IMG/VR virus record: IMGVR_UViG_3300019378_000003
From: a virus
Taxonomy: Duplodnaviria > Heunggongvirae > Uroviricota > Caudoviricetes
Reading direction: 5' to 3' (one strand)
DNA: 64,000 nt
Under the pieces are notes generated by a model. The model was not told where the DNA came from. It made no database searches and saw nothing but the letters and a program-made list of their open reading frames with translations. This document shows, piece by piece, positions 41,812-63,283 of the stretch (within the stretch, counting starts at the first letter, position 1; each line of letters starts with the position of its first letter). Made by a program: the position numbers and the translations under genes.

Positions 41812-41813
41812 TT

Positions 41814-44800: not shown

Positions 44801-46385
44801 ATCAACAGAAGCAGATGTTTTAGAAAATGATGCTATTATTACTGCAGATTCTTTAGCAGATAATTTAACACTAAAAACTGTCAACAGATGGATTGGTATT
44901 GGTTTAACTGATCAGAATAATGACGATATTCTTACTTTCGGTCATAGGTTATCAGATATTAAAAATGATACACCTCGTGTATTAAATGGCGCTCGTAAAG
45001 CACATAGTAAATATACTAATGTACAGCGTTATGGTTTGCCTTAGAGCAAATCTGTTACATTATTAGATCAAGACAATGGACAAGAGCTTGCAAATACATT
45101 TAATGTTCCATATTTTGAAATCGATGAAGCTGGACATATGGTATATGCAGAAACAAATACTGTAACATTACCAGAAAATTTTGAAACTATTACAATAGCA
45201 AAAGCATCAGATAATTTAAGTGAAGAATATGCCACTGAAGATACAAACACAAAAGCTGGCGCCACGATGGATGAATATGCTACTGCGAATATTATTAAAG
45301 CAGATAGTTTAAGTGACAATCTTACTTTTAATACTGGGAATAAATGGATTCGTTTAGCAGGAACAGATGAAAACGCAACGGATGATATTATAACAATTAG
45401 TCATGAAATACATAATATCCGCTCTTCTACTAGCGAAGAAGATATGGATACAGAAGCTAATAAAAAAGATCAATTTACTACTTAGGTTGTAGAATGGGAC
45501 AATGCTGGACATATTATTTCACATGACACCAAGACTTGGACTCTACCGAATAGTATTCGTAATATTACAGTTGGTATAAATTCTGATAACTCCTCTAACG
45601 CTGAAGTTAACGATTCTACAGTAACTGTTCAAGCAGACACAACTTTTGATACAGTTAATTTTAATGCTTCTAATAAATGGATTAGACTTACCGCAAATGA
45701 TACTAATAATACTATTACAGTAGGTCATCTTGCTCAAAGTACAGCTGGTTCTTATCCGAAGAAAGACACGGAAATAGAATTTTCTGAATTTGGCAGTAAA
45801 GTAACTTTATAGGGATATGCCATTGATGAGGCCGGTCATATTATTGACTATCCTACTTATACATTAGCAATACCCAAAGGTTCTTATAGTGAAAATGGAG
45901 GCACTGAAGGGGCGAATGTGCTTACTTCTCTCGCTTTTGTTGATACAACTGGAACTTTAACTGGCACTAAAGTAAATATTGGCACTTTAAAATTAGCAGA
46001 ATATGAATTAGGTACTGATGTTAGTGCTATTGCAGCAACAGATTAGTTAAATAAAGCATTAAGTAAATTACAAGCCTAGATTAATGCTCATAAAACAAAT
46101 ACTGATAATCCTCATAATGTTACTGCAGAACAAGTTGGTTTAGGAAATGTTACTAATGAAAGTAAAGCTACTATGTTTGCAAGTGCTGCTTTAACAGGAG
46201 AACCTACGGCTCCAACAGCTGCAGCAGGTACAGATACAATGTAGATTGCTACTACAGCTTTTGTAACAACCGCAGTAACAACATTAAGTAGTAATGTTTA
46301 TACACAACAACAAGTCGATGAAAAAATCGCAAGTGCTCTTAGAGAATTTGCTGAAACTTATGGACTTACCGTTCCTACAACTTAA
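41814..46385 (+). CDS. Tail fiber with at least 5 internal ~110-aa repeats and a collar-type C-terminal motif. 1523 aa.
   Basis: AGGAGGG then ATG 41814. Track ORFs 41886, 42390, 43314 and 45138 are all frame 0. The gene ends at TAA 46383-46385, followed by a terminator. Repeat cores read NVPYIEVDRAGHVVAAETHIVTLPENFETITV, NVPYFEIDEAGHMVYAETNTVTLPENFETITI and TIPYITVDNAGHIIAASTKNYNIPHGF..., among others. The C-terminus reads ...NVTNESKATMFASAALTGEPTAPTAAAGTDTMQIATTAFV. Confidence 0.55.
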
Positions 46386-46396
46386 TACATAAACAA

Positions 46397-46428
46397 AAGG
46401 GCAGATTTATTCTGCCCTTTATTTTTTG
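46397..46428 (+). terminator. Rho-independent terminator.
   Basis: AAGGGCAG-atttatt-CTGCCCTT hairpin followed by TATTTTTTG. Confidence 0.65.
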
Positions 46429-46446: not shown

Positions 46447-46731
46447 ATGGTTAATAGTCATGGTTATTATTCTGGCCATGTTGGTCAGCTTGACGCAGAA
46501 TTTGCTGCTAATCAAGATCTTATTACACTAATTCGTGAAAAGCATAAGCTTTATGACTTTAAAGGTTTGGTAAAGCTTGGCATTCAAGCTCCTATCGGCA
46601 CAAAGTTTGTTATCAATGGACAGACTTTGCGTATTGGCGCAACCGGTATTTACGAATTAGACCGCACTGTTAGCGTTAAAGAACTTTATTTCGTTGAAGA
46701 TACTGAAGCTTTAGTGGACTATGTTTATTAA
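46447..46731 (+). CDS. Small tail protein, 94 aa, no TAG. Paralog of the 41473-41811 gene.
   Basis: AAAGGAG then ATG 46447, ending at TAA. Confidence 0.4.
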   Translation: MVNSHGYYSGHVGQLDAEFAANQDLITLIREKHKLYDFKGLVKLGIQAPIGTKFVINGQTLRIGATGIYELDRTVSVKELYFVEDTEALVDYVY

Positions 46732-46787
46732 TCTACTCGAACTTCTTTTGAAATTATAAGACGACCACAGGAAGGAGTTTGTTGAGT

Positions 46788-47117
46788 ATGGCAAGCTTTT
46801 ATGGAGGCGTTGGCATATCAGGTGGCTCCGGTGGAGGTTCCTCAGGAGTTGGAATCGCAACCATTGAATTTGATGAAAATCGCAACTTAATTATCTATCT
46901 TTCTGATGGAACCAAGAAAAATCTTGGTATTATTGATGGTGCGACTTATACACCAAAAGTGGTTGACGGAGTAATTTCCTGGACCAACGATTAGGATTTA
47001 GAGAATCCTGATTCATATGATATCACCGCAGGACTCGATGGAGGAGAATACTGGGAAGGTGTTACTTCTGAATCAGAACAACCCGCGGATGATAATCAAT
47101 ATTGGGAATCAATATAA
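46788..47117 (+). CDS. Small Gly-rich protein, ~109 aa, 1 in-frame TAG.
   Basis: GGAG then ATG 46788 (the track's TTG 46779 is too close to the RBS). A TAG at 46992 is read through to TAA 47115-47117. N-terminus is GGVGISGGSGGGSSGVG. Confidence 0.35.
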
Positions 47118-47140
47118 TTATTTGAAGGGGTGAAAAATAA

Positions 47141-48373
47141 ATGGCTAAAATTCCTGTAGTATTTAAGTACGGTACTAGAGCTCAATATGACGCTTTAGCT
47201 ACTAAGGATGAACATGCTCTTTATTTCTTAACTGACACTGGCGAAATTTATCGTGGTGCTGTTAATCTTGCCCGCGGCAGTCACTTTGAAGGTGAACTTA
47301 CTGTTGATGACGCAGATGATATGGCCGTTATCGCACGTGTATTGAACGGTCAACCCGCAGTCCAAGATGATATTTTTGTCGTAAAATCTCTTATCGCAGA
47401 TGGTAAGTATTCATATACTTCCTATATCTATGATGAGAATGGAAATTGGAAGGCCATGGACGGCAATTATAGTGCCAAAAATGTTTATTTCCACAATGAC
47501 TTAACTGCTACTGCTCCTATTGGTGTTGTAACCATTCCGGAGACTGGTAGTGCTACTATTAAAGCTGAAGGCAAGAGCCTTCATGATGTTCTTGTAAGCA
47601 TTCTCGCTGAAGAGCTTCAGCCCGAAGCTACTGCTCCAACAGTATCTGTTACTTCTTCCACTAGAGGTTCTTATGAAGTTGGTAGTGTTATTACTCCAAA
47701 ATGGAGCGCAACTTTAAATCCAGGTTCTTATACTTATGGACCTGAAACTGGTATTGTAGCTACCTCTTGGACTATTACTGATAACGCAAGTACTCCTCAT
47801 GCTTCTAGCGAAGCATCTGGATCTTTTGCTGATGTAACAGCTGAAGATGGTAAGAGTTATGTTATTAGCGCAACTGCTACATATGATGCTGGTGCAGAGC
47901 CTGTGACCAATATGGGTAATCCAGCGGAAGAGGGAATTCAAATTCCTGAGGGTGCAGCAACAGGTAAAGTAACTGTTGTTAGTTCTTACCGCAATTCTTT
48001 CTATGGTGTATATACATCTAAGGAAGTAGATGGTGTACAAACTGGTTCCACTTCTGATTCTATCCGTACACTTAAAGCAAGTAATAAAGCATTGGCTAAT
48101 GGCGGTAGCTTTGATATCGCAATTCCTGCTGATGCACAGCGTGTTGTGATTGCTTATCCAGCAACCTTGAAAGACTTAGATCAAGTATTAGATGTTAATG
48201 ACTCTAATGCTAATATCGTTAGTGCTTTCACCAAAGAAGATGGTACAGCAAAAGCTACAATTCAAGTTGCTGGCGCTAATGGATATAATCCTATTGATTA
48301 TAAAGTATTTAGCACAGACTTTGCTGGCGCTTATGGCGCAACAAATACTTTCAAAGTAAAAATTAAGGCGTAA
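47141..48373 (+). CDS. Tail fiber/receptor-binding protein, 410 aa, no TAG.
   Basis: N-terminus reads MAKIPVVFKYGTRAQYDALATKDEHALYFLTDTGEIYRG, the fiber-anchor motif shared with the 50014, 51765 and 59000 genes. Confidence 0.5.
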   Translation: MAKIPVVFKYGTRAQYDALATKDEHALYFLTDTGEIYRGAVNLARGSHFEGELTVDDADDMAVIARVLNGQPAVQDDIFVVKSLIADGKYSYTSYIYDENGNWKAMDGNYSAKNVYFHNDLTATAPIGVVTIPETGSATIKAEGKSLHDVLVSILAEELQPEATAPTVSVTSSTRGSYEVGSVITPKWSATLNPGSYTYGPETGIVATSWTITDNASTPHASSEASGSFADVTAEDGKSYVISATATYDAGAEPVTNMGNPAEEGIQIPEGAATGKVTVVSSYRNSFYGVYTSKEVDGVQTGSTSDSIRTLKASNKALANGGSFDIAIPADAQRVVIAYPATLKDLDQVLDVNDSNANIVSAFTKEDGTAKATIQVAGANGYNPIDYKVFSTDFAGAYGATNTFKVKIKA

Positions 48374-48387
48374 GGAGGAAGAGAGTT

Positions 48388-49983
48388 ATGGCTTTAAACT
48401 TTGGTAAAGGTAATAGAAGTATAGCTTTCGCCCCGACTGCGGCATTCCCGCTTAACGCGAATAGCTATTTTGAAAGTTATGACCTCGCTCTTGCTGCTGC
48501 GTTAACCGCAAAGCCAGCAGGCGACACTACTACTAAATATTATTTCGGCCAAGAAATTGCTGTTGCCGAAATGGTAGATAACGTACCTTAGAGTGCGAAA
48601 TTATATATCATCGCTCCTGAAGCTCAAGAAGATGGTTCTGTTGTAGGAACTCTTCAAGAGGTTGGCTCTGCCACTGACGGCGATGGTAAATCTATTGAAC
48701 TTGTCGAAGGCGTTCTTTCTGTAAAGGATTTCGGCAAGCGTTTTTATAAATACATCGCAGCTACAGAAACTGAAGAAGCTAAATATGAACTTGTTGAAGT
48801 TTCTGAAAGCAACCCTTGGAAATCCGGTTTACAACCTCGCATTGATGCCGAAGGTAATATCGCTTGGTACGAACCCAATCCTACTACTATTGAAGGAGTA
48901 CAAGATTAGGTAACTGGTATTCAAGGCGATGTCGAATAGGCTCAACAAGATATTGACGCAGTTGAAGAAAACCTCGTAAAAGCTGAAGAGAAAATTGATT
49001 CTATCAATGATACTCTTTATGGCACCGACGGTGAAGAAGCTGTCGAAGGTCTTGTTGATAAAGTAGCAACTCTTGAAAGTGAAATGGATGCTGTTCAAGG
49101 AGCTATTGAAAATACCTATACAAAAGAAGAAGTTGATGGTCTTGTAAGTGGAGTATTCCATTTTAAGGGCGAAGCCGAAAGTGTTGATGCACTTCCTGCT
49201 GCTTCTGCTGAAAATGTAGGTCATGTATATCAAGTTGGTGATCTTGAATATGCTAGCAATGGTGAAGAGTGGGTTGAACTTGGTTTCGTTGTTGATTTAA
49301 GTTCTTATGCGACTAAGACTTATGTTGATGATGAAGTTAAAGAAGTTCAAGATGCTCTTGATATTGCTGAAGGTATTATTGAAGGACATACTTCTGATAT
49401 CGAAGAAATTAATGGTGCTATCGAGCGTATCGATGGCGAAATTGATGTTCTTGAAGAAGCTGATAGAGGATTTACTTCTCAATTTGAAACCGTAAATGGC
49501 AAGATTGAAGCCCTTGAAACTGCGGATGAAACATTTACTTCTCAATTTGAAACTGTAAATGGTAAAATTGAGGCTCTTGAAGCTGCAGATATTGCTTTTG
49601 ATACTAAAGTTGGTTCTCTTGAAACTACACTTGGTAATATAAATTCTAGAGTTGGCGCTCCTTCTGAAGGTTCTACAATTACTGTATTGTTCCCAGCTGT
49701 TGAATCTTTACAGAATAGAATTAATGATTTAGAAATTAATTCTGGCGCTGGCGAATTAAATATTATTAATGGTATTACCATTAATGGAACTGCTCTTACT
49801 CCAGACGGTTCAAAAAATGTTGCTCTTCCAATTTTTGATGGCTCCAATATTGGTCTTGTACCTGTTGTTGGTGATGATATTGTTACTGCCACTTCTTTCT
49901 TGTCCGCAGAAGGCGCATGGATTGATGTCGCTTCTATGATTGATAATAAGATCGATGAGGCATTAACTTGGGAAGAAATTTAA
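48388..49983 (+). CDS. Coiled-coil fiber protein, 531 aa, 3 in-frame TAG.
   Basis: AAGGAGG then ATG 48388. Track ORFs 48388 and 49084 are in the same frame. The gene ends at TAA. It contains a perfect 20-aa (60-nt) tandem repeat, GFTSQFETVNGKIEALE(T/A)AD. Confidence 0.5.
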
Positions 49984-50013
49984 AAATAAAAAAGAAAAAG
50001 GGGATATTTAACT

Positions 50014-51687
50014 ATGGCTTTAACTGATAGCATTCGTTTTAGATAGGGTAGTTTAGCCTCCCTCGTTAATCAGTCTGTTGTTAATGGTTCTTTATGGTTC
50101 ACCACTGACGAAGGTGCAATTTATTTAGACGTTAATGGTAGCCGTGTTCGCTTCGGTGATTTTGTAACTGTTGCTAACGTTGCTTCTCTTCCTACTGCAG
50201 GTCATGCTTATGAATCTGCTCTTTACTATGCAAAAGCTGAAAATGTTCTTGCTCGTTGGGATAAAGCCTCTAGCAAGTGGGTTCAGCTTAATGCTGCTGG
50301 CTTAACCAAGGTTAATGTTACTGGTGGTGGCAATGTTCTTGCTGGTGCCACTACAACTGTTGACCCTGAAACTGGTGCAAAGGTTCTTACCTTTACCACT
50401 CAGAATGTTGCAACTTCTGAAGAACTCGGCACTATGCAGACTCGCGTTTCCACTCTTGAAACCAAGATGGAAGGCGTTCAGGCTGACATTACAACTTTAA
50501 AGGGCACAGGCGAAGGTTCTGTTGCTAAGGCTGTTGCTGATGCTAAGGCAGACCTTCAGGCAAAAATTGATGCAGTTGATGCTCTTGCTGATCAAGGTAT
50601 CGCAGATGCTGCTGCTGCAAAAACTTATGCAGAAGGCGTTCAGAGCAACTTAAATGCTACTAATCTTCGCATGGATACTGCTGAAGCTGATATTGATGCT
50701 TTACAGACAGCTATTGGCGAAGGTGGCAGTGTTGACGAGAGGATTGAAGATCTAAAAGAAGAAATCCTTGGTGATGCTAATAGTGCAGCAGGCTCTGCGA
50801 CTGTTTCTGGTGCTAATAAAGCCGCCGCAGCCGCACAAGCCGCCGCAGATGCTGCACAACAAGCTGCTGATGATGCTCAGGCAGATGCCGATGCTAACGC
50901 AGGTGAAATCAGCGGTCTTAAGACTCGTATGGACGGAGCAGAAGCTGATATCGACGATCTTCAGGCTGCTGTTAATACCTTAAATGGTGATGACAAGACT
51001 GAAGGTTCTGTAGATTATAAAGTAGCTCAGGAAGTTGCTAAAATCTTAAATGATAACGACGCTTCTGATATTGACACTCTTGAAGAAATTGCTGCTTGGA
51101 TTAAGAATGATACCGCAGGTGTTGGTTCTCTTGTAAGCCGTCTTGATGCCGTTGAATCTAAGAACAATTCTCAAGATACTTTAATTGAAGGCTTAGATGC
51201 TGAAATCGATGCTAACAAACAGGCTGCCGAAAAGGCCGTTTCTGATCTTGAAGAAGCACTTATTGGTGATGCTGAGACCTATACCGATCTTGGCAAGGCT
51301 GAAGATGCTATTATCGCAGCTAAGGCTCAGGCTGATAAAGGCGTTGCTGACGCAGCTGCTGCTTCTGCAGCCGCCGCCCAGGTTCAGACTAATTTAAATG
51401 CAACTAATGGTCGTGTAGAAGGCGCAGAAGCTGATATCGATGACCTTCAGGCCCGCATGACTCAGGCAGAAGCTGATATTGACGCTCTTGAAGCTGCTGA
51501 TACTACTATCCGTGGCGAATTCGCAGCTGCTGATACTGCACTTAAGAATGAACTTAAAGGCGATGCCACCACTTATACCGATCTTGGCAAAGCAGAAGAC
51601 GCTATCCAGGCTAACACTGGTTCTATCAATACTATCAATACCAACATTGAAGCTATCAATGCTGTTTTGACTTGGGATACTTTTTAA
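50014..51687 (+). CDS. Coiled-coil tail fiber, 557 aa, 1 in-frame TAG.
   Basis: ATG 50014 is in frame with track ORF 50434, through a TAG at 50041. N-terminal motif reads ...GSLWFTTDEGAIYLDVNGSRVRFGD. It has repeated AEADID(A/D)LQ heptad blocks. The gene ends at TAA, followed by a terminator. Confidence 0.5.
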
Positions 51688-51695
51688 TTAATAAG

Positions 51696-51735
51696 AAAGG
51701 CGGATATTAACTAATAATATCCGCCTTTATTTTTA
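51696..51735 (+). terminator. Rho-independent terminator.
   Basis: AAAGGCGGATATTA-actaa-TAATATCCGCCTTT hairpin followed by ATTTTTAT. Confidence 0.7.
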
Positions 51736-51764
51736 TATAAATAAGAAAAAAAGGAGGACTCTAA

Positions 51765-54700
51765 ATGGGCATTATGGATTCTCCAGTAAGATTTTTCAAA
51801 GGCTCTAAATCTGCCATTGACAATTTTTAGGGAATTGAAGATGGAAGATTGTTTTTTGCGACAGATACAAAATAGATAATGCTTGACTGTAATTTTACAG
51901 ACAGCGAAGCAAATAACTATAATAAGAGAATTACTTTTGGTGGGTCTACTGGTATTCACTATGCAAATCGCACTTTCACAGAAGATGAAATTGCAGCTGA
52001 TTTGTATGTCTTTTCCATTTTAGATGGTCATATCGATCAAGAAGGAGAAGAACTTCCTGAGATTGATGATCTAATTTTGAACGTAAAAGATGGCTCATTT
52101 TATCGTGTCACAAGACGAGATGAAACAGAGCTTACTGTAGAAGCTACTAAATTGACAATTTCCGGTTCTGGTGGCGGCGGTGGAACCGATGGTGGCGGTG
52201 GATATATTTCACGTACGCTATTATCTGATCGTACCTTATATGCCACTAAAACTTCTGCGAATATTCAAATGAAATATACTTGTTATTCTACTGCAGATGG
52301 CGCAAGTATTCGTGCTACAGTGTATGTTGGTACGGGCAGTGGCAGAAAACAAGTTGATTATTTCCCAGAAGTTAGCCAAGAAGAACCCAATATCGTTAAC
52401 ATTGCGGAATATATGTCTACTTTAAAATTGAATGCCGCCAACACAATTACCATTCAATTAGAAGATGATTATGAAAATTCCATTTCAGTATCTTGTACTG
52501 TATATGTTTATGATATGTATGTTACTCTTGTTGGTAGTAGCATGATTTTACCCCAAGAGAACGATTTTACTTTCCAGGTTCGTCCATATGGAGGCCAAGA
52601 ATTATCTAATCGCGCATTAGTATATGAATTGCGTCAAGCAGGTAGTGATTCTGTTATTGCGAAAGAAATTGAATATACCACTGCTGACAATGGCTCTTCT
52701 GCGAATAAAACTATTAAAAAGCAAGAGCATGGCGAATATACTTTAACTGTATATTTACAAGGTTAGATTCCTAAATCTGAAGAGTATTTAACTTCTCCTC
52801 CTATTCAAATCGAAATTCCATTTTATAATGCGAATGCTTCTTCTCCTCTAATTACTGCCACTTCAGGTATTACTTCTGCCACACAGTACGATAAAATTAA
52901 AATCGATTACATGATTACATATGGAGCAACAAGTACTTCATACGTTAAATTGTTAGCAGAATATGATGAAGGCTTTGGCTCTCGCGTAGTCGGAGAAGAA
53001 ATGATTGTTGAAATCAATAATAAGGAATTCTATAATTGGAATGTAACTTTTGATAAAGCTGCAACTTATTATTTATCAATTATTTATTTGGATTCAAACC
53101 AAAATGAAACCGATTATGCCAAAATCTTTACTCCAATTATTGTTGAATCTTTTGATGAAGAAGTTCCAGTAATCAATACTGCTGATCCATCATTAATGTT
53201 ATACTTCACCTCTAAAGGTAAGTCTAATAATAGCCAAGATAAAGATACTTGGGTTTCTAAGTATTATGGTGGAGAAGTAAAAGCACAATTTTCTAACTTT
53301 AACTGGAACACTAATGGTTGGATTGAAGGCCCAGACGGTTTAGGTTTACATCTTACCAATGGCGCAAAAGTAGTTATTCCTTATTCTCCATTTAAACCTG
53401 ATAGTAACGGTTTGGGTGCAGAAAATTTAGGTCGTACTATTGAATTAGATTTCAAGATTTCTAATGTGCGCGATGAAATGGCTCCTGGTATTCAATGCCG
53501 TTCTTACTATACAGCTGAATTAGATGATGGCACCAAAGAAGAAATTACCCAAGTAGGTTTTTAGATTTATGGTAATAAGAGTCAGATGAACTCTGCTTAG
53601 GTAAAATCTAAAATTACTGATATGAGTGGATGGACTACGATGTTCAAAGCAGGAACACGTATTCATTTAACCTATGTTATTAATAGTGTAAATGATACTC
53701 CTCCTCGTATTTTTTATACTTTCTTAAATGGTGTTACTTCTTCTCTATCTGCTTATACAGAAACAGACCAATTTATTGACTTATCTGAAGATAAAGATAA
53801 AAATATTTTCGATTCTGAATTTATTTTTGATTCTTCATATATGGATATTGATATTTATTCAATTAGAGTTTATCAATCTTCATTGAGACCAAATGATGTT
53901 CTTCGTAACTGCATCGCAGATAAATCTTCTGCTACTGACGCAGCAGCAGAATGGAAATAGAATGATGTTTTAACTACCTTCGAAGATAGAACAACTGGTA
54001 TTGACCTTGAAGAAGTTATAAAGCTTGGCAATATTCCTTATATGGTATTTTATGATGGTCGTGATACCGGTAGTAAGAAAGATGAAGGCTGGGAAGACCC
54101 TGATTTTGAAGACGGCGAATTCCCGACTTCTGATGAATCTAGATTGCCAACTGGTAAAAAGGACTTCCGTCACATGGAAATGTATTATGTTGACCCAATT
54201 CGTGGTGAAAAATATAATATTGGTACTCCTGATAGTCCAGTAATTGTTACTTGCTACGCTCAAGGTACTTCCTCTCTGGAATATCCTGTCAAGAACTTGC
54301 GTATTTATTTCCGCAAGAAGGATGACGGCAATCACCCGAATCAAATTGCTAAATATTCTTTAGAAGATAAACTTCCCGCTGTTAACTTGTTTACTTTAAA
54401 AGCAGACTACATGGAATCTGCTAGTGCTCATAATACTGGTACTGCTAATATTTTGGATGAACTTTATAATTCAATTGGATTAAAGAGTCCTGCTGCGGCA
54501 GCTTATCCAGATAATAGAATTGTAACTGCGATTTTGGGACATCCTATTGTTTGTTTCTATAAGCCATATAAAGCAAGTGCAGAATTCCCGGATCGTTATC
54601 AATATATAGGTCGTTATAATTTTAATTTAGATAAAGCTACTCATGAATTATTCGGTTTTGAATCCGAAATGGAGGCATATGGTTCCCAGAAGAAACCTTG

Positions 54701-57700
54701 GGGCTATTTACAGAATGCGGATGGCTCTTTAAGAGACGGTTTTAATACAGCTCTTGAATTTACCGATGGAAAAGTATATTATTCTGAACCTAACTTAGAA
54801 TCCACTAAAATTGAATTCACTCAAGCTACAGAAGAAGACCGCGAAAAGGCATTTGGTAAGCAAGCTGCTATTGGCCCAATGTATGAATATAAGAGCGCAG
54901 AAGAAGGCGTTACTTGTGTTCAATGTTGGGAGTTCTTAAATAATACTAGTCCATTAGTTGGATTTAGAGAATATTGGGATGAAGAAGTAGATAAAGTTGA
55001 AATAACTCATAAAGATGATACCGGAAAAACTGTAGTAGATCATGCTCCTTATGCTGACTGGACAGGCGCTTTTGAATCTCGTTATCCAGAACATGAAGAG
55101 GAAGCTTCAACTGATAAACGTACTTTAGCAAGAATGTTAAACTGGGTTGCATCTACTAATAGACATCCTGACGTTGTAGCAAAAGAATTAGCAGAACAGG
55201 GAAAAGATACTTCTCCTGAAGCTATTAAAGCAGAACAAGAAGCCAGATTAAATAAATTTAATTTAGAATTTGCTGAATATTTTGTTCCAGATTTTGTTGC
55301 TTTCTATTATGTCATTACAGAGTTTCTTCTTATGATTGACTCTCGTGCTAAGAACATGATGATGGCATGTTTTGATGCCGATCCAGAAAATAATACTGGA
55401 CATTGGATGCCTATTTTCTATGATATGGACACAATGCTTGGTGTTGATAACTCTGGTAACTTACGTTTCCCATATAGCCAAGAGGATAATCAACTTGATA
55501 CTTTTAATGCCGCAGGTACTTATGATGCTACTCAATATAGTGTATTGTGGTGTAATTATCGAGATGCTCGTTTTGGCGATATTAAAGCTATGTATCAAAA
55601 ATTACGCAAAGGTGGAGTATTTAATTATAATCGTCTTTTAAGAGCTTATAACGCTGATCAAGCAGACGCTTGGCAAGAAGTTTATATTAACGAAGACGCC
55701 GATTATAAATACATTGATCCTCTTGTTAGCGGATATGAAGTTTGGTTCGATCCAGAAGGCAATATTATTACTGCTGAAGAAGCAGCAAAAATTGAAGGCG
55801 CTAAGAAGAAGAGTGCTGCAAACTATTTATATGCCGCTCAAGGTACTCGTTCGCAGCATCGTAATTATTGGTTAGAAAAGCGCTTTAATTATTTAGATTC
55901 TAAATATAATTATTCTCAAGAGGTATTAGGCTCTTCTGCAGGTTCTGGTTTGAACTTCCGTTTGAATTCTGACCTAGCACAAGGCGCAGGTAAGCCCAAG
56001 TTCTCTGGTGACTTTGATTTCATTTCATTAGCAGACCAATATGTAACTGTTGACTATGCTCAAGGAAATATTGTTGGTCCTGTTCGAATTTATGCAAATC
56101 AGCCTTATCATGTTGATAGTCCTTTTGAGACATCGACTGACCAAGAAATGTATATCTATGGTCTTGATGATATTGTTGAACTGGGTGACCTTTCTACCAA
56201 ATACTTTAATAAGTTCCAGTTAAATAAGGCAACAAAATTACGTAAATTAATTCTTGGTTCTCACGAAGGTAATTTCAGTAATCCGAACCTTGGTACGGCA
56301 AATATTTTTAATATTGGTGAGAAGGGAGCAAATGTTCCATTCCTAGAGGAAATTAATATTGAAAATTGTTCCGGTATTAAAGATGCTTTGGATTTGTCTG
56401 CTTGTCCTTATTTACAAAAAGTATATGCAAAAGGCTCAGCAATTACTACTGTAAATTTCTATCCCGGTGGAAACTTATAGCACATAGAATTGCCATCTTC
56501 CACTACTGCTCTCTCCTTGAACGGCCAATTGTTCTTTAATACTAAAGATCATCCTGAAAATTTGAGCATTGAGAGCTATCGTAGATTAGCAAAAATGCAT
56601 ATTACTAATTGTCCTCTTGTTGATTCTAAGACTTTGTTTAAGAATACTATTTATACTGCTAGTTCAGGTAATGATGTTAGCTCTCTTTTAAATATTCGCT
56701 TAGATGATTTAGATTGGACTTTTGACGTAGATGAATGCGTATTTAAAGATAATGTTTTAACTAATATTCCACTATTAGATATTTTGGTCACTTTAAATGG
56801 TCTAAATACTGCAGGTAACAATATTACAAGAGCAGATATGAATAATGACTATTTGGCAGGAACTATCACTATTCTTAATGGCAATAATTATGGTATTAAT
56901 GAATTGACACTATATGAAAAGTATAGTATTTTATTCCCTAATTTACAATTTAAGTATACAGAAAATAATTATTGTACAAAAGCCTATTCTATTAATATTA
57001 ATAATGCTCAATCACAAATTCTTTATTCTTATTCAAAGAAAATTAAAGCTACTGATATTGCTACATATAGTGAGAATTTAGAATCTTGGTTCACTCCAGT
57101 TGTTTTAGAGTATAATGAGATTGTAGATGAAGTAACAGGTGAAGTTTCTCGTGTTCCAAAAAATTATGACGAAACAAATCATTTGCCTCCTCTTGTAAAA
57201 CAATCTACAGCACAGTATATTTATGATTTCCGTGGCTGGGGATTAGAGAAGCCATTAGATTTCTCTGAACGTGATTATACTTCTGACGAGAGAGAACAAG
57301 CTATTGCAGATTCTCTCGCAATTAAAGTATCTTATACTATTGATGAAGATAATAATTATACCTATACCGCAGAAAAAGTTAATGGTTTTGAATTGAACAT
57401 AGATGCATTTGGTACTGACCAAGAAATTAATTTTTATCCAGTTTACGCCGCAGATTTGAACACTCATATTGTTCGTTTCTACGATGGTATAAATAGTGAG
57501 CCATTAAAGGTTGAGCGTGTAAAATATGGTTAGTCAGCGACTCCTCCTCAGAATCCGCAGAAACTTGAATTGCCCGAAAACGATAAGACAGTTGCTTACT
57601 CTTATCCTTTTATTGGTTATAATCTTCCTTACGACAATATTGTTATGGAGCTTAATACCATCGCCCAATATGGTACAAAGAAACCTTTATCCAAAATGAC

Positions 57701-58760
57701 AGGCGATGAAATTAGTCGAGATTACTTCAAACCTGCGAGTGTTAGTGAAGGTGTAGATTATCTTACCAGTGATGAAATCGCTATTGGTATTAAACCTGAC
57801 TTTGCAGACGAGGCTATTATTATTCCTTCTACTTATGACGGAAAACCTGTTGGTCTAGTTAGAGTAGAGTATGGCGACTAGCAACCTAAGAACTTACGTC
57901 GTATTTTCTTCGAAGAAGGAAATACAATTAAGGTTATCGGCAATAATTTTATGGCAGAAAACAAGAATATTGAATTCTGTGATTTGTCTGCTCTTGGCTC
58001 ATTATCACTTATCGGTATTCAAGCTTTTATGAATTGTTTTAATTTAACATTTAAGTCACTGCCGAATAGCGTTACAAAAATTGACACTAATGCTTTTGCT
58101 TATTGCTCTTCAATTAATTTTTCTGCTTTACCTGATAAGTTAGAATCATTAGGTCCTAATGCATTTAGGTCTTGTGAATCTTTAGGAGAAATTACAATTA
58201 ATAATACTTAGCTCACACAAATCCCTGATTACGCTTTTGAACGTTGTACTAATCTTAAGATCAAGGGCGAAACTATCAATTGTTTAGTTACTACAATTGG
58301 TTAGTATTCATTTGATTATTGTAGTAATTTAGTTTTGAATTTTGATATTGATTCTACTAATAGACTATCTACAATTAAAGATTTTGGCTTCGGTCATACT
58401 CCAATGTTAAATATCAATAATTTCCCAAGCAATCTTACTTCTATCGGCACTTCAGGTATGAGTTCTGTAAATGGTGCTGGAGGCTTGTTGACAGCTAATG
58501 TAATTCCTAAGACTGTTACCTCAATCGGTGGTGGCGCATTTATGTTTAGAAAATTGGCAGATGAAAATCTTGGTATCCTTATTATCGAAAATCCAAATAT
58601 TATTTTAGCAGATAGTGCTTTCTCATATTTGTCAGGGGTAAAGGAAATTTGGGTTCCAAAATCTGTTGATTTAAATAGTGCTCCTTGGAATTCTGAAACT
58701 TGTTTTGGATGTACTCAATCCTCTCCTGGTGTTATTATAAAACACAATCCTAATGGCTAA
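51765..58760 (+). CDS. Giant tail fiber/receptor-binding protein, 2331 aa. Central CotH-like region, C-terminal BspA-type leucine-rich repeats.
   Basis: AAGGAGG then ATG 51765. Nine track ORFs (51879...58335) are all frame 0. I checked every junction (52766, 53564, 53960, 56480, 57533, 57881, 58211) and found TAG only. The gene ends at TAA 58758-58760. N-terminal anchor motif reads FKGSKSAIDNFQGIEDGRLFFATDTKQIMLD. The LRR region reads ...IGIQAFMNCFNLTFKSLPNSVTKIDTNAFAYCSSINFSALPDKLESLGPNAFRSCESLGEITI... Confidence 0.6.
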
Positions 58761-58775
58761 TGAAGAGGTATTATT

Positions 58776-59000
58776 ATGAAAAAAGTTATATTATATCAAT
58801 ATGTAAATGATAACAATGAAGTGGTAGTAACTACTGAGCCGATGTCAGAAACATCGGCTCAGATCTTCTATCTTTTAACTGCGGACGAAGGTTATTATTT
58901 ATATAATAAAAAATTACATCATAAAAGGAAGTCTACAATTACTTCCGATTATCTTGCAGATAATTGGGAAGAATTAAAATAGAAAGAAGGAAATGAGTAA
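58776..59000 (+). CDS. Small hypothetical protein, 74 aa, 1 in-frame TAG.
   Basis: ATG 58776, ending at TAA 58998-59000, which overlaps the next ATG. Confidence 0.35.
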
Positions 59001-60349
59001 TGGCTATTATAGCTTCTGAACATGTATTAGGTCTTGCGATGGGCCAAGAGGCGAAATTAACTACGCCTGGCACTACGGGTTATTTAACCCCCAAGGCTGG
59101 TATGATGTACATTACAACAGATACTCATAAATTATTTGTTGATACTGTTGATGGTACTCGTATTGCGATTAAATCTCCTGAAGCTGCGAAAGTAACTAAT
59201 GCTTTTACTATTAAGGTTGGAGGCACTGCTTTAGGATCTGCCTTTAATGGTTCTGCTGCTAAAACAGTTAATTTTGTTGCTGGTACAAACATGCAGCTTG
59301 TTCCATCTAATAATAATACAATTACAATTAATAATACTTTGTCTATTCCAACCTCTTTGAAAAATCCTTATGCTTTAACATGGGGAAATAAATCTTATGA
59401 TGGTTCTGCTGCGAAAGAAATTACTTTAGAAGATTTCGGTATTACCAATGTTCTTCACTTCTTGGGAACTACTACTGATACTAATGTTGTAGACAACGGT
59501 ACCACCAAGACTATTACTATTGGTGGCGCTTCTGTTACTGCAGTTTCTGGTGATATCGTAATTAGAGACAATGTTGAATATATCTGGACGGGAACCGCTT
59601 GGGAAAAGCTTGGAGACGAAAATCTTTGGGTTCCAAATACTCGCACTGTTAGTGCTGGTTCTGGATTAACTGGTGGCGGAGCATTATCTGGCAATCTTAC
59701 TATTTCTCACGCTACTTATAATTGCACCCATCCAACCAGTGGCGATTTTGTGTCAAGTATTGCTGAAACCAATGGTCATGTTACAGGATATACCAAGACT
59801 AGCTGGTCTAGCGTAAGAAAAACTTTAGCTTTAAAAATTAATGGCACTGCTCAAACTACTTATGATCCATTTGGCTCAGCAAATCAAAGCTTTAATGTTC
59901 CTGTAATGACTGCAGGAGATTCTTCCAAGGCAAGTACAATTGGTTTAGTTCCAGCCGCAGCTGCAGGAGCGACTACTCGTTTCTTATGCGCCGATGCTAC
60001 TTGGCACTCTCTTGTAGCGGGTACCGGTATTAGTGTTAATGGATTAACTATTAGTAATGCTGGCGTACGTAGTATCACTAAAAAGTCTAATGGTGTACTT
60101 ACAATTGCTACTGGAGAGGCTTCTGGTGATATTACAGTTTATAGCTTACCAGCAGCAACTACTAGCGCTCTTGGTGGTGTAAAAGTTGGTAACAATATTT
60201 CTGTAGATAGTGGTGTAATCAGCCTTACCGCAAATAATGTGAAAAATGCATTGGGTGTTGCTACAGCTAGCGCAGATGGTTATTTACAAAAAACTGATTT
60301 TGCTCTATTCACAGAAGCTCATGATTCTATTGTTTGGGGTACTTTCTAA
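59000..60349 (+). CDS. Tail fiber protein, 449 aa, no TAG.
   Basis: N-terminal motif reads ...GYLTPKAGMMYITTDTHKLFVDTVDGTRIAI. The protein is Gly/Thr/Ser-rich and beta-rich. C-terminus is ...SADGYLQKTDFALFTEAHDSIVWGTF. It ends at TAA, followed by a terminator. Confidence 0.5.
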   Translation: MAIIASEHVLGLAMGQEAKLTTPGTTGYLTPKAGMMYITTDTHKLFVDTVDGTRIAIKSPEAAKVTNAFTIKVGGTALGSAFNGSAAKTVNFVAGTNMQLVPSNNNTITINNTLSIPTSLKNPYALTWGNKSYDGSAAKEITLEDFGITNVLHFLGTTTDTNVVDNGTTKTITIGGASVTAVSGDIVIRDNVEYIWTGTAWEKLGDENLWVPNTRTVSAGSGLTGGGALSGNLTISHATYNCTHPTSGDFVSSIAETNGHVTGYTKTSWSSVRKTLALKINGTAQTTYDPFGSANQSFNVPVMTAGDSSKASTIGLVPAAAAGATTRFLCADATWHSLVAGTGISVNGLTISNAGVRSITKKSNGVLTIATGEASGDITVYSLPAATTSALGGVKVGNNISVDSGVISLTANNVKNALGVATASADGYLQKTDFALFTEAHDSIVWGTF

Positions 60350-60403
60350 TTGGTCCGTCTAAATTAAATAATCTAAATTGCTTTCTATATTATTTAGAGC
60401 ATC

Positions 60404-60440
60404 GGGAGGAGTCTATTTCTGGGCTCCTCCCATTTTTTTA
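60404..60440 (+). terminator. Rho-independent terminator.
   Basis: GGGAGGAG-(12-nt loop)-CTCCTCCC hairpin followed by ATTTTTTT. Confidence 0.55.
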
Positions 60441-60459
60441 TTATAAAGGAGATTTGATT

Positions 60460-60927
60460 ATGCCAAACATTATTTTTGAGAATGGCGGTCATTTAAGAAC
60501 GACTCAATGTTCTGCAGATGAAGTATATGGTATTGAATCTCTTCAAATTTACATTCCTACTATTTATAATAATTCTCAAATTTTCCTTATGCTCAAGAAT
60601 AAGTAGAATTTATATGAAATAGTAGAATTAGTAAAAAGCAAAAGAGAAAAAAACCATATCATTTGTAAGATTGCCGCAGGTTAGAATTTTAGAGTTTCTA
60701 ATGATTTAATGACTTTGGCAATCTTAATTCTTGATCCAGTAAAAAATATATTTGAATTTAGTAAGGAAATTGAAATTAATCTTACAACTGATAAATATAT
60801 TATGGCGCGGCAAATTCAATTAGCGGCGCAATTAGGATCACAAGTTTAGGCTTATTATCAAAAGATAGTAGAGCTTACTGAAGAAAATAAAAAAATATAT
60901 GAATAGATGAAAGGGGTACATATATAA
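60460..60927 (+). CDS. Hypothetical protein, 155 aa, 4 in-frame TAG.
   Basis: AAAGGAG then ATG 60460, in one frame to TAA 60925-60927 (TAATGA overlap with the next gene). The track ORF 60334-60606 is a 5'-overextended fragment of this gene. Confidence 0.4.
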
Positions 60928-62627
60928 TGATAGTAAGAGTTCCTTCTTATACTGAAGATGCTATCTTGCATGGTGAATATCAAAAATTATTTGCCGCAGC
61001 AGAAAAGAAAACAGACCCAGGTACAACTATTACTAGTTTACCAGAATATTTTAATGCCCTTCAAAAAGATGCCAATTTGCGTGGTATTGGACGTTTTGCT
61101 CGTATTCCTCTTGATGAAGATTTATTTTTAGTAAATTTAAATGATCGTTCTATTACTGTTCCTCCACATTTCCAAAAATATGGTGTTGCAGTTAATGGAG
61201 ATCATCTTGCTGAATTCTTATTCTTCCGTGTTGATAGATATTTTGATCAAATGGATTTATCTGAATGTGAATGTCGTATTGAATGGATGACTGCAGGAAA
61301 TAAACCATTGGCGGCTTATACACCAGCACATGCTATTGATTTAGTGTTTGAAGCTCCAATTGATCCTTCCATTAATCCCAAGCCTACTCATGGCGATATT
61401 ATTTATGCTGATGATAGTGAAAATGAAGAAGACCGTGAAAATGGAGATAGAAGTGCAATTATTTTTGGATGGCCTTTAGATAATCAATTTACTTCTGAAG
61501 TTGGCGATGCTAAATTTGCAATTCGTTTTGTTTAGTATGATGTCAATGAAAAAGATGGAACTAAAGAAATTGTTTTCAATCTTTTAACTTCTCCTGCTAC
61601 TGTGAAAATTCTTCCAAAACTTCCTATTGATTCTGAAATGCTAGAAATGGTAGATTATAGTGCTACTTTGGCTTCTCGTCCTGTATATTCTGGTTTAATT
61701 AATAGCACTGGTCTTAAACCTGTTATTACTTCTTATAGCTGGGCTGAAAAAGCTTATGAAAATTTGGAAGAAAATGGTCAAGTAACATTAAGTGTTACGG
61801 CGACTGACCCAGATCCTTCTAAACATCCTTTAACTTATCAGTGGTTTAAAGATTCAAAATCACTTTCAGGAGAGACACAATCTTCATATGTTGCCACTGA
61901 GGCTGGATTGTATCATGTTGTTGTTATGAATGCCGTAGAGGATGAAGAAGGCAATCAAATCAGTACGACTAGTATTGCTACTAATCCTTGTTTAATTCCT
62001 AGTGCAGGCAAAATTGCTATTGATTATGAAGGTTATCCATTACAGCTATTTTCTAGCGGTGAATATGCAACTTCTGAAATTAAAGTTAAATTTGTTCCTG
62101 CTCTTGAGGCAGATCATAATCTTGGAAAGATTAATTATTCTTGGGCCGAAGATGGTATTGAGATAAATACTGGTGCAGTTGAAAAAGCAGGAGATTTCTA
62201 TTGGGAAGTTCCATTGACAATTGAAAATATGGCTCATGGTAATTTTGTTTTAAATGCTACTCATGTATTAAATAAAACAGAATCTGCTACGGTAGAGAGT
62301 AAAATGATTGAAATTCGTCCTGCCGCACAACAACCAGAAGAAGTTGTAATTAGTGCAAATGAAGACCGTTCTATTTTTGAATGTTCTTGCGTTGTACCTG
62401 GCAATGATGATTTACAGTATACTTGGTCTTATACTAAATCTGAAGGTACTTTGATTTCTATTTCTTCCGGTTGGGGAAATGAAAAAACTATTTCTATAGA
62501 AGCTATTGAAGCAAAACTTGGACGTGAAATAAAAGCTAAAGAAGCTTTACATGTTGCAGTGCGTCAAATTCGTTTTAATAATGAAGCAAATGCAAGTACA
62601 ACTGCTAGCGCCAGTTTTAATCTTTAA
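60927..62627 (+). CDS. Virion protein, 566 aa, 1 in-frame TAG. N-terminal domain is paralogous to the 62657 gene.
   Basis: Track ORFs 60927 and 61602 are in the same frame, separated by a TAG at 61533. The gene ends at TAA. Reads ...GDHLAEFLFFRVDRYFDQMDLSECECRIEWMTAGNKP...FAIRFV. Confidence 0.45.
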
Positions 62628-62656: not shown

Positions 62657-63283
62657 ATGAGTTATTATCTCGCTAATTCTTATTATAATGCTCTGTTGGA
62701 TATATAGAATAATTCAGGTACATAGCTTTTAAAGTTTGATTTAACAGACGAAGAAGATATGATAAAACCTCTTATTGAAATTGATCTAAATAAACGCTTA
62801 ATTATTTTACCTCCTGAATATGATCCTGAGCAAGGTGGTTTTTTAAGCCTAGAAAGTGATCATTTAGCAGAGTATTTATATTTTGTAGTAGATCGTTATT
62901 ACGAAGATATGGATTTATTTCAAACTGCTATTGTGGTAGAATATATTAATGCTGCAGATAAGCCGGAATCTCGAATATTTCCGGTCATGTTAAAAGATAT
63001 TACTACTATGCCAGGCAAAATTATTTTTGCCTGGCATATCGGCAATGAAGCTACAAAAGCGGCTGGCATGATTAAATTTGCAGTACGTTTTTATTTAGTT
63101 CATCCGACAGAGGCTAAATTTGAATATAATTTAAATATTTAGTCTTCACAGAGTGAAATTAAAAAAAGTTTAGGGCATATAGACTGGGAAGAAGAATATG
63201 CCGATATTTTTGATCCTTCTACTCTTGAGATTATTTTATCTGGTATTGAAATGGCCAGACATGTATATTGGACAGATGTTTAA
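62657..63283 (+). CDS. Virion protein, 208 aa, 3 in-frame TAG. Paralog of the N-terminus of the 60927 gene.
   Basis: AGGAGG then ATG 62657, in frame with track ORF 62759, ending at TAA 63281-63283. Reads ...SDHLAEYLYFVVDRYYEDMDLFQTAIVVEYINAADKP...FAVRFY. Confidence 0.45.

What the first reader, a model, noticed from the sequence alone, without database searches (positions are those of the whole stretch)
47141..60349. A battery of at least four distinct fibers sharing one N-terminal anchor motif.
The 47141 gene reads ...HALYFLTDTGEIYRG. The 50014 gene reads ...GSLWFTTDEGAIYLD. The 51765 gene reads ...GRLFFATDTKQIMLD. The 59000 gene reads ...GMMYITTDTHKLFVD. All share the short hydrophobic-x-(F/Y/I)-x-TD(T/E)-x-x-(I/L) anchor at residues ~20-45. 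Their distal parts are completely different: a globular 410-aa domain, two coiled-coil stalks, LRR plus CotH, and a Gly/Thr-rich beta-rich protein. Together with the repeat-rich 41814 fiber, this implies a virion displaying several receptor-binding specificities. The fiber genes sit in separate terminator-delimited units, which points to modular exchange.
Basis: seen in the sequence. Interest (0 to 1): 0.6.

Follow-up and report, generated by a model that had tools for sequence, protein, structure and literature searches.

The report
Phage fibre genes sharing one N-terminal module
Four neighbouring fibre-like genes of a gut phage that reads TAG as glutamine start with the same ~45-residue module, a widespread swappable N-terminal cassette of phage fibres, so this is a real but fairly ordinary example of modular receptor-binding proteins.

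Summary
Read with TAG = Gln, genes 47141, 50014, 51765 and 59000 each begin with a ~45-aa module (strand, short helix, hairpin "ΦxΦxTD[TE]xxΦ"). The motif occurs four times in all six frames, always at residues 27-36 (0.14 expected). A profile separates these four (E 1e-20 to 2e-11) from everything else in the window (next E 0.38).

The module is not private to this phage. An exhaustive search found 4,321 protein clusters, almost all carrying it at residues 1-50, on bodies of 54-2,562 aa. Pfam covers part of it as PF24243. On orthologues of the 47141 body it is replaced, at one junction, by the Mtd_N domain (PF18454). A close relative has 96-98% identical baseplate proteins but fibres only 45-81% identical.

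The best reading is an exchangeable N-terminal trimerisation and attachment adaptor on several virion fibres. Docking itself is inferred, not shown.

- Terminators delimit two multi-gene units, not single genes.
- The "globular" 410-aa protein is a string of Ig/PKD-like domains.
- CotH is unsupported.
- Only one coiled-coil stalk carries the motif.

New here: a conserved C-terminal W-x-x-Φ tail on five fibre-region proteins.

The parts
47141..48373 (+). Gene 47141 (410 aa). N-module at aa 1-46 (nt 47141-47278), then a small alpha/beta domain, then a string of Ig/PKD-like beta-sandwich domains.
50014..51687 (+). Gene 50014 (557 aa, 1 TAG). N-module at aa 1-46 (nt 50014-50151), a long Ala-rich coiled coil, and the C-terminal tail LTWDTF.
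   Evidence: Profile E 3.1e-18. Only coiled-coil Pfam and NCBIfam hits. 20% Ala. Tail.
51765..58760 (+). Gene 51765 (2331 aa, 11 in-frame TAG). N-module at aa 1-48 (nt 51765-51908), a large uncharacterised body, and a BspA-type LRR at aa 2058-2189.
   Evidence: Profile E 3.6e-14. The phrog_14959 alignment (aa 274-1651) spans the TAG at nt 56478, and LRR_5 (90.9 bits) lies downstream of it in the same frame. Orthologues are called as 2474 and 2359 aa.
59000..60349 (+). Gene 59000 (449 aa). Divergent N-module at aa 1-58 (nt 59000-59173), a Gly/Thr-rich body, and the C-terminal tail IVWGTF.
   Evidence: Profile E 2e-11. 13 full-length orthologues all end in W[GSD][TS]F. Weak PF11133 head-fibre hit of 17.8 bits, below the 24.6 cut-off. 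G 10.9% and T 14.7%.
48388..49983 (+). Gene 48388 (531 aa). Coiled-coil fibre without the N-module, with its own N-terminal domain and the tail LTWEEI.
   Evidence: No profile hit. Its N-terminal 120 aa are 87-100% identical to L003 against 56% overall. Tail.
46788..47117 (+). Gene 46788 (109 aa). Small protein starting 'MASFYGG' and ending in the tail QYWESI, directly upstream of 47141.
   Evidence: 94% identical in L022.
41814..46385 (+). Gene 41814 (1523 aa). Repeat-rich fibre without the N-module. A conserved N-terminal part of ~340 aa is followed by a variable distal part.
   Evidence: DNA identity to L022 is 91.8% up to nt 42827 and then collapses. Protein windows. C-terminal PHROG tail-fibre hits.
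46447..46731 (+). Gene 46447 (94 aa). Paralogue of 41473-41811 (112 aa). Each of the two precedes an 'FYG'-type gene.
   Evidence: BLASTP E 9e-8. 98% identical in L022.
46396..46420 (+). Terminator-like hairpin with a T-run after gene 41814.
51696..51728 (+). Terminator-like hairpin with a T-run after gene 50014.
60404..60431 (+). Terminator-like hairpin with a T-run after gene 59000.
62657..63283 (+). Gene 62657 (208 aa). Ends in the tail VYWTDV. Its N-terminal domain is paralogous to that of 60927-62627.
   Evidence: BLASTP E 9e-17.

Best explanation
The window is the late structural arm of a large gut siphophage that reads TAG as glutamine, of the phAss-like 'code 15' clade. Downstream of the tape measure and baseplate genes lies a cluster of fibre-like genes. 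Four of them (47141, 50014, 51765, 59000) begin with the same self-contained ~45-residue module: a strand, a short helix and a beta-hairpin.

I propose that this module is an exchangeable N-terminal adaptor. It would nucleate the oligomer, probably a trimer, and plug otherwise unrelated distal bodies into the virion. The bodies are an Ig/PKD-like adhesin string, a fibritin-like coiled coil, a 2331-aa LRR-bearing giant and a Gly/Thr-rich head-fibre-like protein. The particle would then display several binding specificities. Host range would evolve by swapping or diverging the bodies while the chassis stays constant.

Shown here:
- The module is shared and statistically real.
- It is N-terminal in thousands of protein families.
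- It is interchangeable with Mtd_N.
- The fibres are hypervariable next to a conserved baseplate.

Inferred:
- Trimerisation and physical docking.
- The docking partner.
- That all four proteins are in the virion.
For: 1. Motif statistics and profile separation.

2. An exhaustive HMM search found 4,321 cluster representatives at E <= 1e-3 and 469 at E <= 1e-10. In nearly all of the best 150 the module sits at residues 1-50, in proteins of 54-2,562 aa.

3. The attached bodies include PTR, YadA_head, Phage_fiber_2, Gp10_C, LRR_5, GDSL and head-fibre domains.

4. Of the top 120 homologues of the 47141 body, 79 carry this module and 41 carry Pfam Mtd_N (PF18454). The switch occurs at one junction, just before 'HYEG'. 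PF11133 head-fibre proteins likewise occur with either PF24243 or PF18454.

5. Mtd is a trimeric receptor-binding protein that sits at the ends of tail fibres (PMC2408619).

6. A bridging sequence, 'IIKIKRGLSKNLSQANLQEGEMAFTTDTKKLY', is annotated Mtd_N and aligns with the window-type module.

7. hhalign of the two module types gives an in-register alignment over 40 columns, P = 0.005.

9. In other large phage contigs, 2-3 adjacent genes carry the module.

10. Relative L022 has baseplate and small proteins 94-98% identical, but fibres only 81, 70, 54 and 45% identical. A sharp DNA breakpoint lies at nt ~42827 inside 41814. The gene order is kept in L003, L022 and L024.
Against: - There is no direct evidence of docking, of trimerisation, or of presence in virions.
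- No PDB sequence match is significant.
- Pfam's own Mtd_N model hits none of the four.
- The hhalign probability is only 7%.
- Between the window and L022 the baseplate is nearly identical, yet the first 40 aa of 50014 and 51765 are only 65% and 47% identical. That is hard to square with one tight sequence-specific socket.
- The PF24243 motif lies at the C-terminal end of other proteins, for example the sub-threshold match to 9d93 'tail collar fibers gp4' aa 335-353 of 356. It also occurs as an internal repeat. It may therefore be a generic structural hairpin.
- The 47141 body is Ig/PKD-like, as in decoration proteins. Its homologue in Faecalibacterium phage FP_Brigit lies between terminase and portal.
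- The more distant relatives EF1 and phAss-1 lack the module in the regions examined.
Confidence: 0.6

Rival explanations
1. The module is only a folding or oligomerisation nucleus, a generic capping hairpin. It carries no docking information, and attachment is provided by other parts or other proteins.
For: - It resembles collagen XV/XVIII trimerisation domains.
- The motif also occurs at C-termini and as internal repeats in other proteins.
- The N-modules of 50014 and 51765 diverge although the baseplate is conserved.
- About 100-aa proteins consist of little more than the module.
Against: - In nearly all of the best 150 matches, out of 4,321 families found, the module is strictly N-terminal.
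- It is exchanged as a unit with Mtd_N at a fixed junction on the same body. This fits an address or adaptor function better than a mere folding aid.
- Several paralogues sit in one genome.
Confidence: 0.2
2. The proteins are virion appendages but not all are tail fibres. Some are head fibres or tail-tube or capsid decoration adhesins. The module would then dock at different, non-baseplate sites.
For: - 59000 and its relatives share sequence with PF11133 phi29-type head-fibre proteins.
- FP_Brigit gp26 lies between TerL and portal.
- 60927 has Ig and Hoc-like hits.
Against: - All the genes lie downstream of the tape measure and baseplate genes, in tail-tip position, with conserved synteny.
- PF24243 is described as a tail domain.
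- The PF11133 score of 59000 is below the curated cut-off.
Confidence: 0.25
3. Head-to-tail connector code. The C-terminal W-x-x-Phi tail of one fibre-region protein docks on the N-module of the protein encoded by the next gene, building branched or chained fibres.
For: - The tail is found on 5 window proteins against 0.10 expected (P 8.5e-8). All five are in the fibre region.
- It is conserved in orthologues that are only 41-55% identical.
- Genes ending in the tail directly precede N-module genes in 18 of 31 cases, against 9 of 97 for other genes (odds ratio 13.5, p 8e-8).
Against: - The loci are related to each other and fibre genes cluster anyway, so the adjacency test is not independent.
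- Only 2 of 98 long N-module proteins from the global search carry the tail.
- No structural test was possible.
Confidence: 0.1
4. The similarity is chance or compositional.
For: The motif is short and was defined after the fact. The 47141/59000 pair alone is weak (z 2.1).
Against: - Four of four occurrences fall at the same N-terminal position, with 0.14 expected.
- Profile E-values reach 1e-20, with a clean gap to the next ORF.
- There are thousands of external members.
Confidence: 0.01

Closest known systems
Mtd_N (Pfam PF18454), the N-terminal domain of the Bordetella phage BPP-1 major tropism determinant. It is also found on many 'hyaluronidase'-named phage fibres.
   Same: - A ~45-aa domain at the extreme N-terminus of phage receptor-binding or fibre proteins.
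- The same pattern: strand-x-(R/K)xG, then a short helix, then a hairpin with TDT/DLD followed by a Gly.
- It occupies the identical slot on orthologues of the 47141 body and on head-fibre-like proteins.
- Mtd trimers sit at the ends of tail fibres (PMC2408619).
   Different: - The Pfam Mtd_N model does not hit the window proteins.
- Profile-profile support is only marginal (P 0.005, probability 7%).
- The window type has 'ALYFxTDTGEIY' where Mtd_N has 'GEPxFDxDxGxLKxGDG'.
Pfam PF24243 Phage_tail_C ('Phage tail tip domain', 26-position model)
   Same: - 47141 aa 9-31 passes the curated cut-off.
- Many homologues carry it in the precomputed annotation.
- The L003 orthologue of 50014 scores 23.4 bits against the 23.7 cut-off.
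   Different: - The model covers only half of the module.
- It is named for a C-terminal position, whereas here the module is N-terminal.
- Three of the four window copies are not detected by it.
Multi-receptor-binding-protein phages with shared N-terminal adaptor regions: CBA120 TSP1-4, G7C gp63.1/gp66, Klebsiella phiK64-1 and SP6/K1-5. This comparison rests on my own knowledge.
   Same: - Several different distal specificities are encoded side by side.
- Conserved N-terminal parts contrast with variable distal parts.
- Fibres are hypervariable between close relatives.
   Different: - Those systems use T4 gp10-like or T7 gp17-like adaptor domains and are mostly tailspike depolymerases of Gram-negative hosts.
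- No Pfam hit to a gp10-like domain was found in the window fibres.
- Here the adaptor is a 45-aa module on a TAG-recoded gut siphophage, probably of Clostridia.
T4 fibritin (wac). This comparison rests on my own knowledge.
   Same: 50014 and 48388 each have an N-terminal attachment region, then a long segmented coiled coil, then a short conserved C-terminal element containing Trp.
   Different: - There is no sequence similarity.
- The C-terminal element here is 4-6 residues (W-x-x-Phi), not a 27-aa foldon.
phAss-1 / Phassvirus-like 'Caudoviricetes code 15 clade' (PMC10607447)
   Same: - TAG is recoded to Gln in late genes.
- A gut origin.
- A very long tape measure protein (3149-3209 aa there, 3795 aa here).
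- The major capsid protein is 51% identical.
   Different: phAss-1 has a single receptor-binding fibre with pectate-lyase domains. [quoted passage not shown]

Membership tests
Pfam PF24243 Phage_tail_C | Score at or above the curated gathering cut-off (23.7 bits). | tested here: met
   47141 scores 27.8-29.8 bits at aa 9-31. This holds for 47141 only.
Pfam PF24243 Phage_tail_C | The same cut-off for the other three genes (50014, 51765, 59000). | tested here: not met
   No hit even at E <= 10. The L003 orthologue of 50014 reaches 23.4 bits, just under the cut-off.
Pfam PF18454 Mtd_N | A match to the Pfam model. | tested here: not met
   No hit for any of the four N-termini.
Pfam PF18454 Mtd_N | Profile-profile or structural similarity to Mtd N-terminal domains. 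| tested here: inconclusive
   - hhalign against the single Mtd sequence gives probability 1.4%.
- Against 29 Mtd_N-type N-termini it is in register over 40 columns, P 0.005, probability 7%.
Pfam PF18454 Mtd_N | Occupies the N-terminal slot of receptor-binding or fibre proteins, giving functional equivalence. | tested here: met
   Of 120 homologues of the 47141 body, 41 carry PF18454 in place of the module, with the same junction. PF11133 proteins occur with either domain.
Branched multi-tailspike systems (CBA120 / G7C type) | A T4 gp10-like adaptor domain in one of the receptor-binding proteins. | tested here: not met
   There are no Pfam hits to gp10-like domains in 41814, 47141, 48388, 50014, 51765, 59000 or 60927. 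Structure-level similarity was not tested.
   - No Pfam hit at E <= 10 on aa ~780-1480.
- None in NCBIfam.
- No PDB sequence hit at E <= 1.
- Orthologues list only LRR_5 in their precomputed Pfam hits.
- A fold comparison was not done.
BspA-type leucine-rich repeat (Pfam PF13306 LRR_5) | Score above the cut-off of 27.7 bits. | tested here: met
   51765 aa 2058-2189 scores 90.9 bits.
phi29-type head fibre (Pfam PF11133) | Score above the cut-off of 24.6 bits. | tested here: not met
   59000 scores 17.8 bits at aa 376-416. Many partial homologues do carry PF11133.
TAG-to-Gln recoded 'code 15' Caudoviricetes (phAss-like) | In-frame TAG in late genes at positions that are Gln or TAG in relatives. 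| tested here: met
   The clade is described in PMC10607447.
TAG-to-Gln recoded 'code 15' Caudoviricetes (phAss-like) | A suppressor tRNA(CTA) encoded by the phage. | tested here: not met
   No tRNA lies in the 64-kb window. The rest of the genome is not available, so absence from the phage cannot be concluded.

The most novel reading that the evidence does not exclude
The fibre cluster may use a two-tag assembly code: the N-terminal module and a C-terminal W-x-x-Phi-COOH tail. The tail of one protein would insert into the N-module of the protein encoded by the next gene, giving the chains 46788 to 47141, and 48388 to 50014 to 51765. The virion would then carry daisy-chained or branched composite fibres built from interchangeable parts. 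That would be a connector system not described for any phage.
Probability: 0.1. Interest if true: 0.75.

Novelty: new member of a known kind. Interest (0 to 1): 0.42.

Why it matters
Gut phages of Clostridia are mostly uncultured, and their host-recognition machinery is unannotated. All the proteins here are 'hypothetical', and PHROGs gives no function.

Recognising a ~45-aa N-terminal cassette helps in three ways:
- It marks fibre or receptor-binding genes in thousands of phage protein families.
- It is interchangeable with Mtd_N, which gives a simple handle for finding receptor-binding proteins in metagenomes.
- It defines natural junctions for engineering chimeric fibres, and it predicts that this lineage carries several specificities at once.

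The principle itself, a conserved N-terminal adaptor with variable distal bodies, is well established. The gain is therefore annotation and a testable docking hypothesis rather than a new mechanism.

Tried and rejected
**Searches that found nothing useful**
- PDB profile searches with 4- and 23-sequence N-module alignments gave nothing significant.
- PHROGs gave only 'unknown function' or coiled-coil noise for the fibres and baseplate proteins.
- NCBIfam gave nothing.
- Foldseek of the full 47141 model against the PDB gave only weak Ig-like hits with TM ~0.15.
- Three literature searches, for 'tail collar fibers gp4', for the same phrase with cryo-EM, and for the Pfam accessions, were unproductive. 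The term 'Mtd_N' matched 'mtDNA'.

**Tests that failed or were inconclusive**
- hhalign against the single Mtd sequence failed.
- CotH for 51765 was tested with Pfam at E <= 10, NCBIfam, a PDB sequence search and the orthologues' precomputed Pfam hits. All were negative.

**Searches limited by the tools**
- A word-indexed protein search with the short profile returned only proteins of 35-104 aa, which is uninformative about architectures. I replaced it with the exhaustive search.
- IMG/VR scans with 59000 and 60927 found no useful relatives.
- Walking along the L003 contig by exact DNA match gained only about 1 kb.

**Hypothesis rejected**
- The idea that the module is universal in the clade was rejected. 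It is absent from the tail region of Enterococcus phage EF1 and from the phAss-1 regions examined.

Full report
**Genetic code and gene models**

With the standard bacterial code the region is broken into fragments.

- Every in-frame stop is TAG.
- Treating TAG as sense doubles the residues in long ORFs. It yields a compact, all-plus-strand late operon.
- Of 43 TAG codons in the window's fibre and baseplate genes, 21 align to TAG and 5 to Gln in relatives.
- The major capsid protein is 51% identical to that of phAss-1. phAss-1 belongs to the gut 'Caudoviricetes code 15 clade', where TAG to Gln recoding and 3,150-aa tape measures were described (PMC10607447).
- No tRNA lies in the window.

The gene map in the region of interest is:

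| Gene | Length | Note |
|---|---|---|
| 38972-41458 | 828 aa | baseplate or tail protein |
| 41473-41811 | 112 aa | small protein |
| 41814-46385 | 1523 aa | repeat-rich fibre |
| 46447-46731 | 94 aa | small protein |
| 46788-47117 | 109 aa | small protein |
| 47141-48373 | 410 aa | N-module gene |
| 48388-49983 | 531 aa | coiled-coil fibre |
| 50014-51687 | 557 aa | N-module gene |
| 51765-58760 | 2331 aa | N-module gene |
| 58776-59000 | 74 aa | small protein |
| 59000-60349 | 449 aa | N-module gene |
| 60460-60927 | 155 aa | |
| 60927-62627 | 566 aa | |
| 62657-63283 | 208 aa | |

Gene 51765 does not stop at the TAG at nt 56478. A PHROG alignment spans that position. A strong BspA-type LRR lies downstream in the same frame. 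The orthologues are called as 2474 and 2359 aa.

**The observation**

Each occurrence is at residues 27-36 of one of the four named genes. Shuffled proteins give 0.14 expected.

Local alignment of the first 60 residues gives z = 11.5, 6.9, 6.4, 4.7, 4.7 and 2.1 for the six pairs.

I then built a profile from the window copies plus copies from 15 IMG/VR loci. It scores the four genes at E 1.4e-20 to 2e-11, and the next window ORF at 0.38. Genes 48388, 41814 and 46788 do not carry the module.

The 59000 copy is the most divergent, but its orthologues show canonical versions.

**What the four proteins are**

- **50014.** It is a 20%-Ala coiled coil.
- **51765.** It has an uncharacterised body (phrog_14959 and phrog_24896, unknown function) and a C-terminal LRR_5. 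The CotH claim finds no support in Pfam at E <= 10, NCBIfam, PDB sequences or the orthologues' precomputed Pfam hits.
- **59000.** It is Gly/Thr-rich and has 13 full-length orthologues. It shares segments with proteins annotated as phi29-type head fibre (PF11133).

**The module as a family**

Pfam recognises residues 9-31 of 47141 as PF24243 ('Phage tail tip domain'), above the cut-off. It does not recognise the other three copies.

An exhaustive HMMER search of 1.84 billion cluster representatives used a 31-sequence profile.

- It found 4,321 families at E <= 1e-3 and 469 at E <= 1e-10.
- In almost all of the best 150 the match covers residues 1-50, in proteins of 54 to 2,562 aa.
- A few proteins carry the hairpin as an internal repeat.
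- Many proteins of about 100 aa are little more than the module.

Among 70 long members the attached domains include phage tail repeat (PTR), YadA head, phage fibre repeat, Gp10_C, LRR_5, GDSL lipase and head fibre.

**Exchange with Mtd_N**

- Among the 120 best homologues of the 47141 body, 79 start with this module. Another 41 start with Pfam Mtd_N (PF18454), for example 'IQVRRDTTANW..VPAAGEPCFDLELGTLKIGDG'. In both groups the common body begins at 'HYEG'. One of these proteins is named 'hyaluronidase' by nr.
- Head-fibre-like relatives of 59000 likewise occur with either PF24243 or PF18454. One Mtd_N-annotated N-terminus, 'IIKIKRGLSKNLSQANLQEGEMAFTTDTKKLY', bridges the two patterns.
- Profile-profile comparison of the two types is in register over 40 columns, but only marginal (P 0.005, probability 7%).

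Homology with Mtd_N is therefore plausible but not established. Functional equivalence of the slot is well supported. Mtd trimers sit at the ends of tail fibres (PMC2408619).

**Synteny and mosaicism**

Three relatives keep the gene order:
- L003, a 173-kb IMG/VR contig
- L022, an ENA contig
- L024, a Logan contig

Identity between the window and L022:

| Protein | Identity to L022 |
|---|---|
| 38972 (baseplate) | 96% |
| small proteins | 94-98% |
| 41814 | 53% (first ~200 aa 90-100%) |
| 47141 | 81% |
| 48388 | 70% |
| 50014 | 54% |
| 51765 | 45% |

At the DNA level, identity is 91.8% from nt 36948 to 42827 and then collapses inside 41814.

However, the N-modules of 50014 and 51765 are themselves only 65% and 47% identical between these two phages. 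This argues against a single tight socket.

In other large phage contigs, 2-3 adjacent genes carry the module. It was not found in the EF1 tail region or in the phAss-1 regions examined.

The 47141 family occurs in genomes and MAGs of gut Clostridia. Among cultured phages it occurs in only one, Faecalibacterium phage FP_Brigit gp26. That gene lies between terminase and portal and has a different N-terminus.

**Transcription units**

Convincing hairpin plus T-run terminators on the plus strand lie only at three places:
- after 41814 (46396-46420)
- after 50014 (51696-51728)
- after 59000 (60404-60431)

Most other intergenic gaps are 14-30 nt. The units are therefore 46447-51687 and 51765-60349, each holding two N-module genes. 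There is no terminator per fibre gene.

**A second shared element**

Five proteins end in W-x-x-[FILVM]-COOH. All lie between 46.8 and 63.3 kb.

| Gene | C-terminal residues |
|---|---|
| 46788 | QYWESI |
| 48388 | LTWEEI |
| 50014 | LTWDTF |
| 59000 | IVWGTF |
| 62657 | VYWTDV |

- The expectation is 0.10 (P 8.5e-8). No other ORF in any frame has this ending.
- The tail is conserved in distant orthologues.
- Genes ending in the tail directly precede N-module genes more often than expected, with odds ratio 13.5. The loci are not independent, though.
- Only 2 of 98 long N-module proteins from the global search have the tail.

This is the basis of the speculative 'connector code' reading.

**Mechanism and verdict**

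The best-supported reading (confidence about 0.6) is that the module is an exchangeable N-terminal oligomerisation and attachment adaptor. It would be related to, or convergent with, Mtd_N. It places several unrelated binding bodies on one virion.

The rivals are:
- a purely structural nucleus with no docking role
- appendages that sit on the head or tail tube rather than on the baseplate
- a head-to-tail connector code

Shared-adaptor, multi-receptor-binding-protein architectures are well known, and the module is already partly in Pfam. This is therefore a new member of a known kind, in a poorly annotated TAG-recoded gut phage lineage. Interest is moderate.

Noticed in passing
window 46788-63283: C-termini at nt 47097-47114, 49963-49980, 51667-51684, 60329-60346 and 63263-63280: Five fibre-region proteins end in W-x-x-[FILVM]-COOH. 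The expectation is 0.10, and no other ORF in six frames has this ending. The tail is conserved in orthologues that are only 41-55% identical. Genes with the tail tend to sit directly upstream of N-module genes.
   Followed up: partly
window 1988-63283 (whole window): TAG is used as a sense codon in most late genes, for example 92 TAGs in the 17788-29175 gene. Genes 47141 and 59000 have none. No suppressor tRNA lies in the window.
   Followed up: partly
window 17788-29175 and 29405-35383: A 3795-aa tape-measure-like protein would imply a very long tail. It is followed by a 1992-aa protein with no PHROG hit at all.
   Followed up: no
window 47363-47464, 49216-49284, 50197-50292, 59546-59617: A second short motif of the type 'GD.V.....E.IWTG..WE.LGD' recurs in 47141, 48388, 50014 and 59000. 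It reminds me of the fibritin foldon. It is conserved in distant relatives of 59000. In the 47141 model it forms the small domain after the N-module.
   Followed up: partly
window 41473-41811 and 46447-46731; 41814 and 46788 N-termini: Two small paralogous proteins (BLASTP E 9e-8, motif 'GIQ..G.KF.ING...IGATGIYEL') each precede a gene whose product starts M[GA]sFYG. A similar 'IGATGYYE' stretch lies in the 1058-aa protein 35799-38975. This may be another adaptor-and-socket pair.
   Followed up: partly
window 60927-62627 and 62657-63283: These two proteins share an N-terminal domain (BLASTP E 9e-17). 60927 also has Ig and Hoc-like segments. This is another paralogous set downstream of the finding.
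   Followed up: no
window ~42827 (inside gene 41814): There is a sharp recombination-like breakpoint. DNA identity to relative L022 is 91.8% from nt 36948 to 42827 and then collapses to 68-78% or nothing. It returns to ~80% at nt 46360.
   Followed up: yes
window 48388-48750 against L003 11266-11630: The N-terminal ~120 aa of 48388 are 87-100% identical to the L003 homologue, although the neighbouring genes are only 33-62% identical. This is the most conserved piece of the fibre cluster. It is either a strongly constrained attachment domain or a recent exchange.
   Followed up: partly
proteins P0247 and P0287; P0021, P0025 and others: The N-module hairpin occurs as 3 internal repeats in some large proteins. 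It also occurs as the main content of complete ~100-aa proteins ('MALFKPFRGSR..HDGYAYFC.DDGSFHIDY') on 155-190-kb contigs.
   Followed up: no
L045 6509-8098 (Faecalibacterium phage FP_Brigit gp26): The only cultured-phage homologue of the 47141 body lies between the terminase large subunit and the portal, not in the tail module. It carries a different, coiled-coil-like N-terminus.
   Followed up: partly
window 46396-46420 and 51696-51728: Both hairpins score as terminators on both strands, with T-runs on either side, although all genes here are on the plus strand.
   Followed up: no
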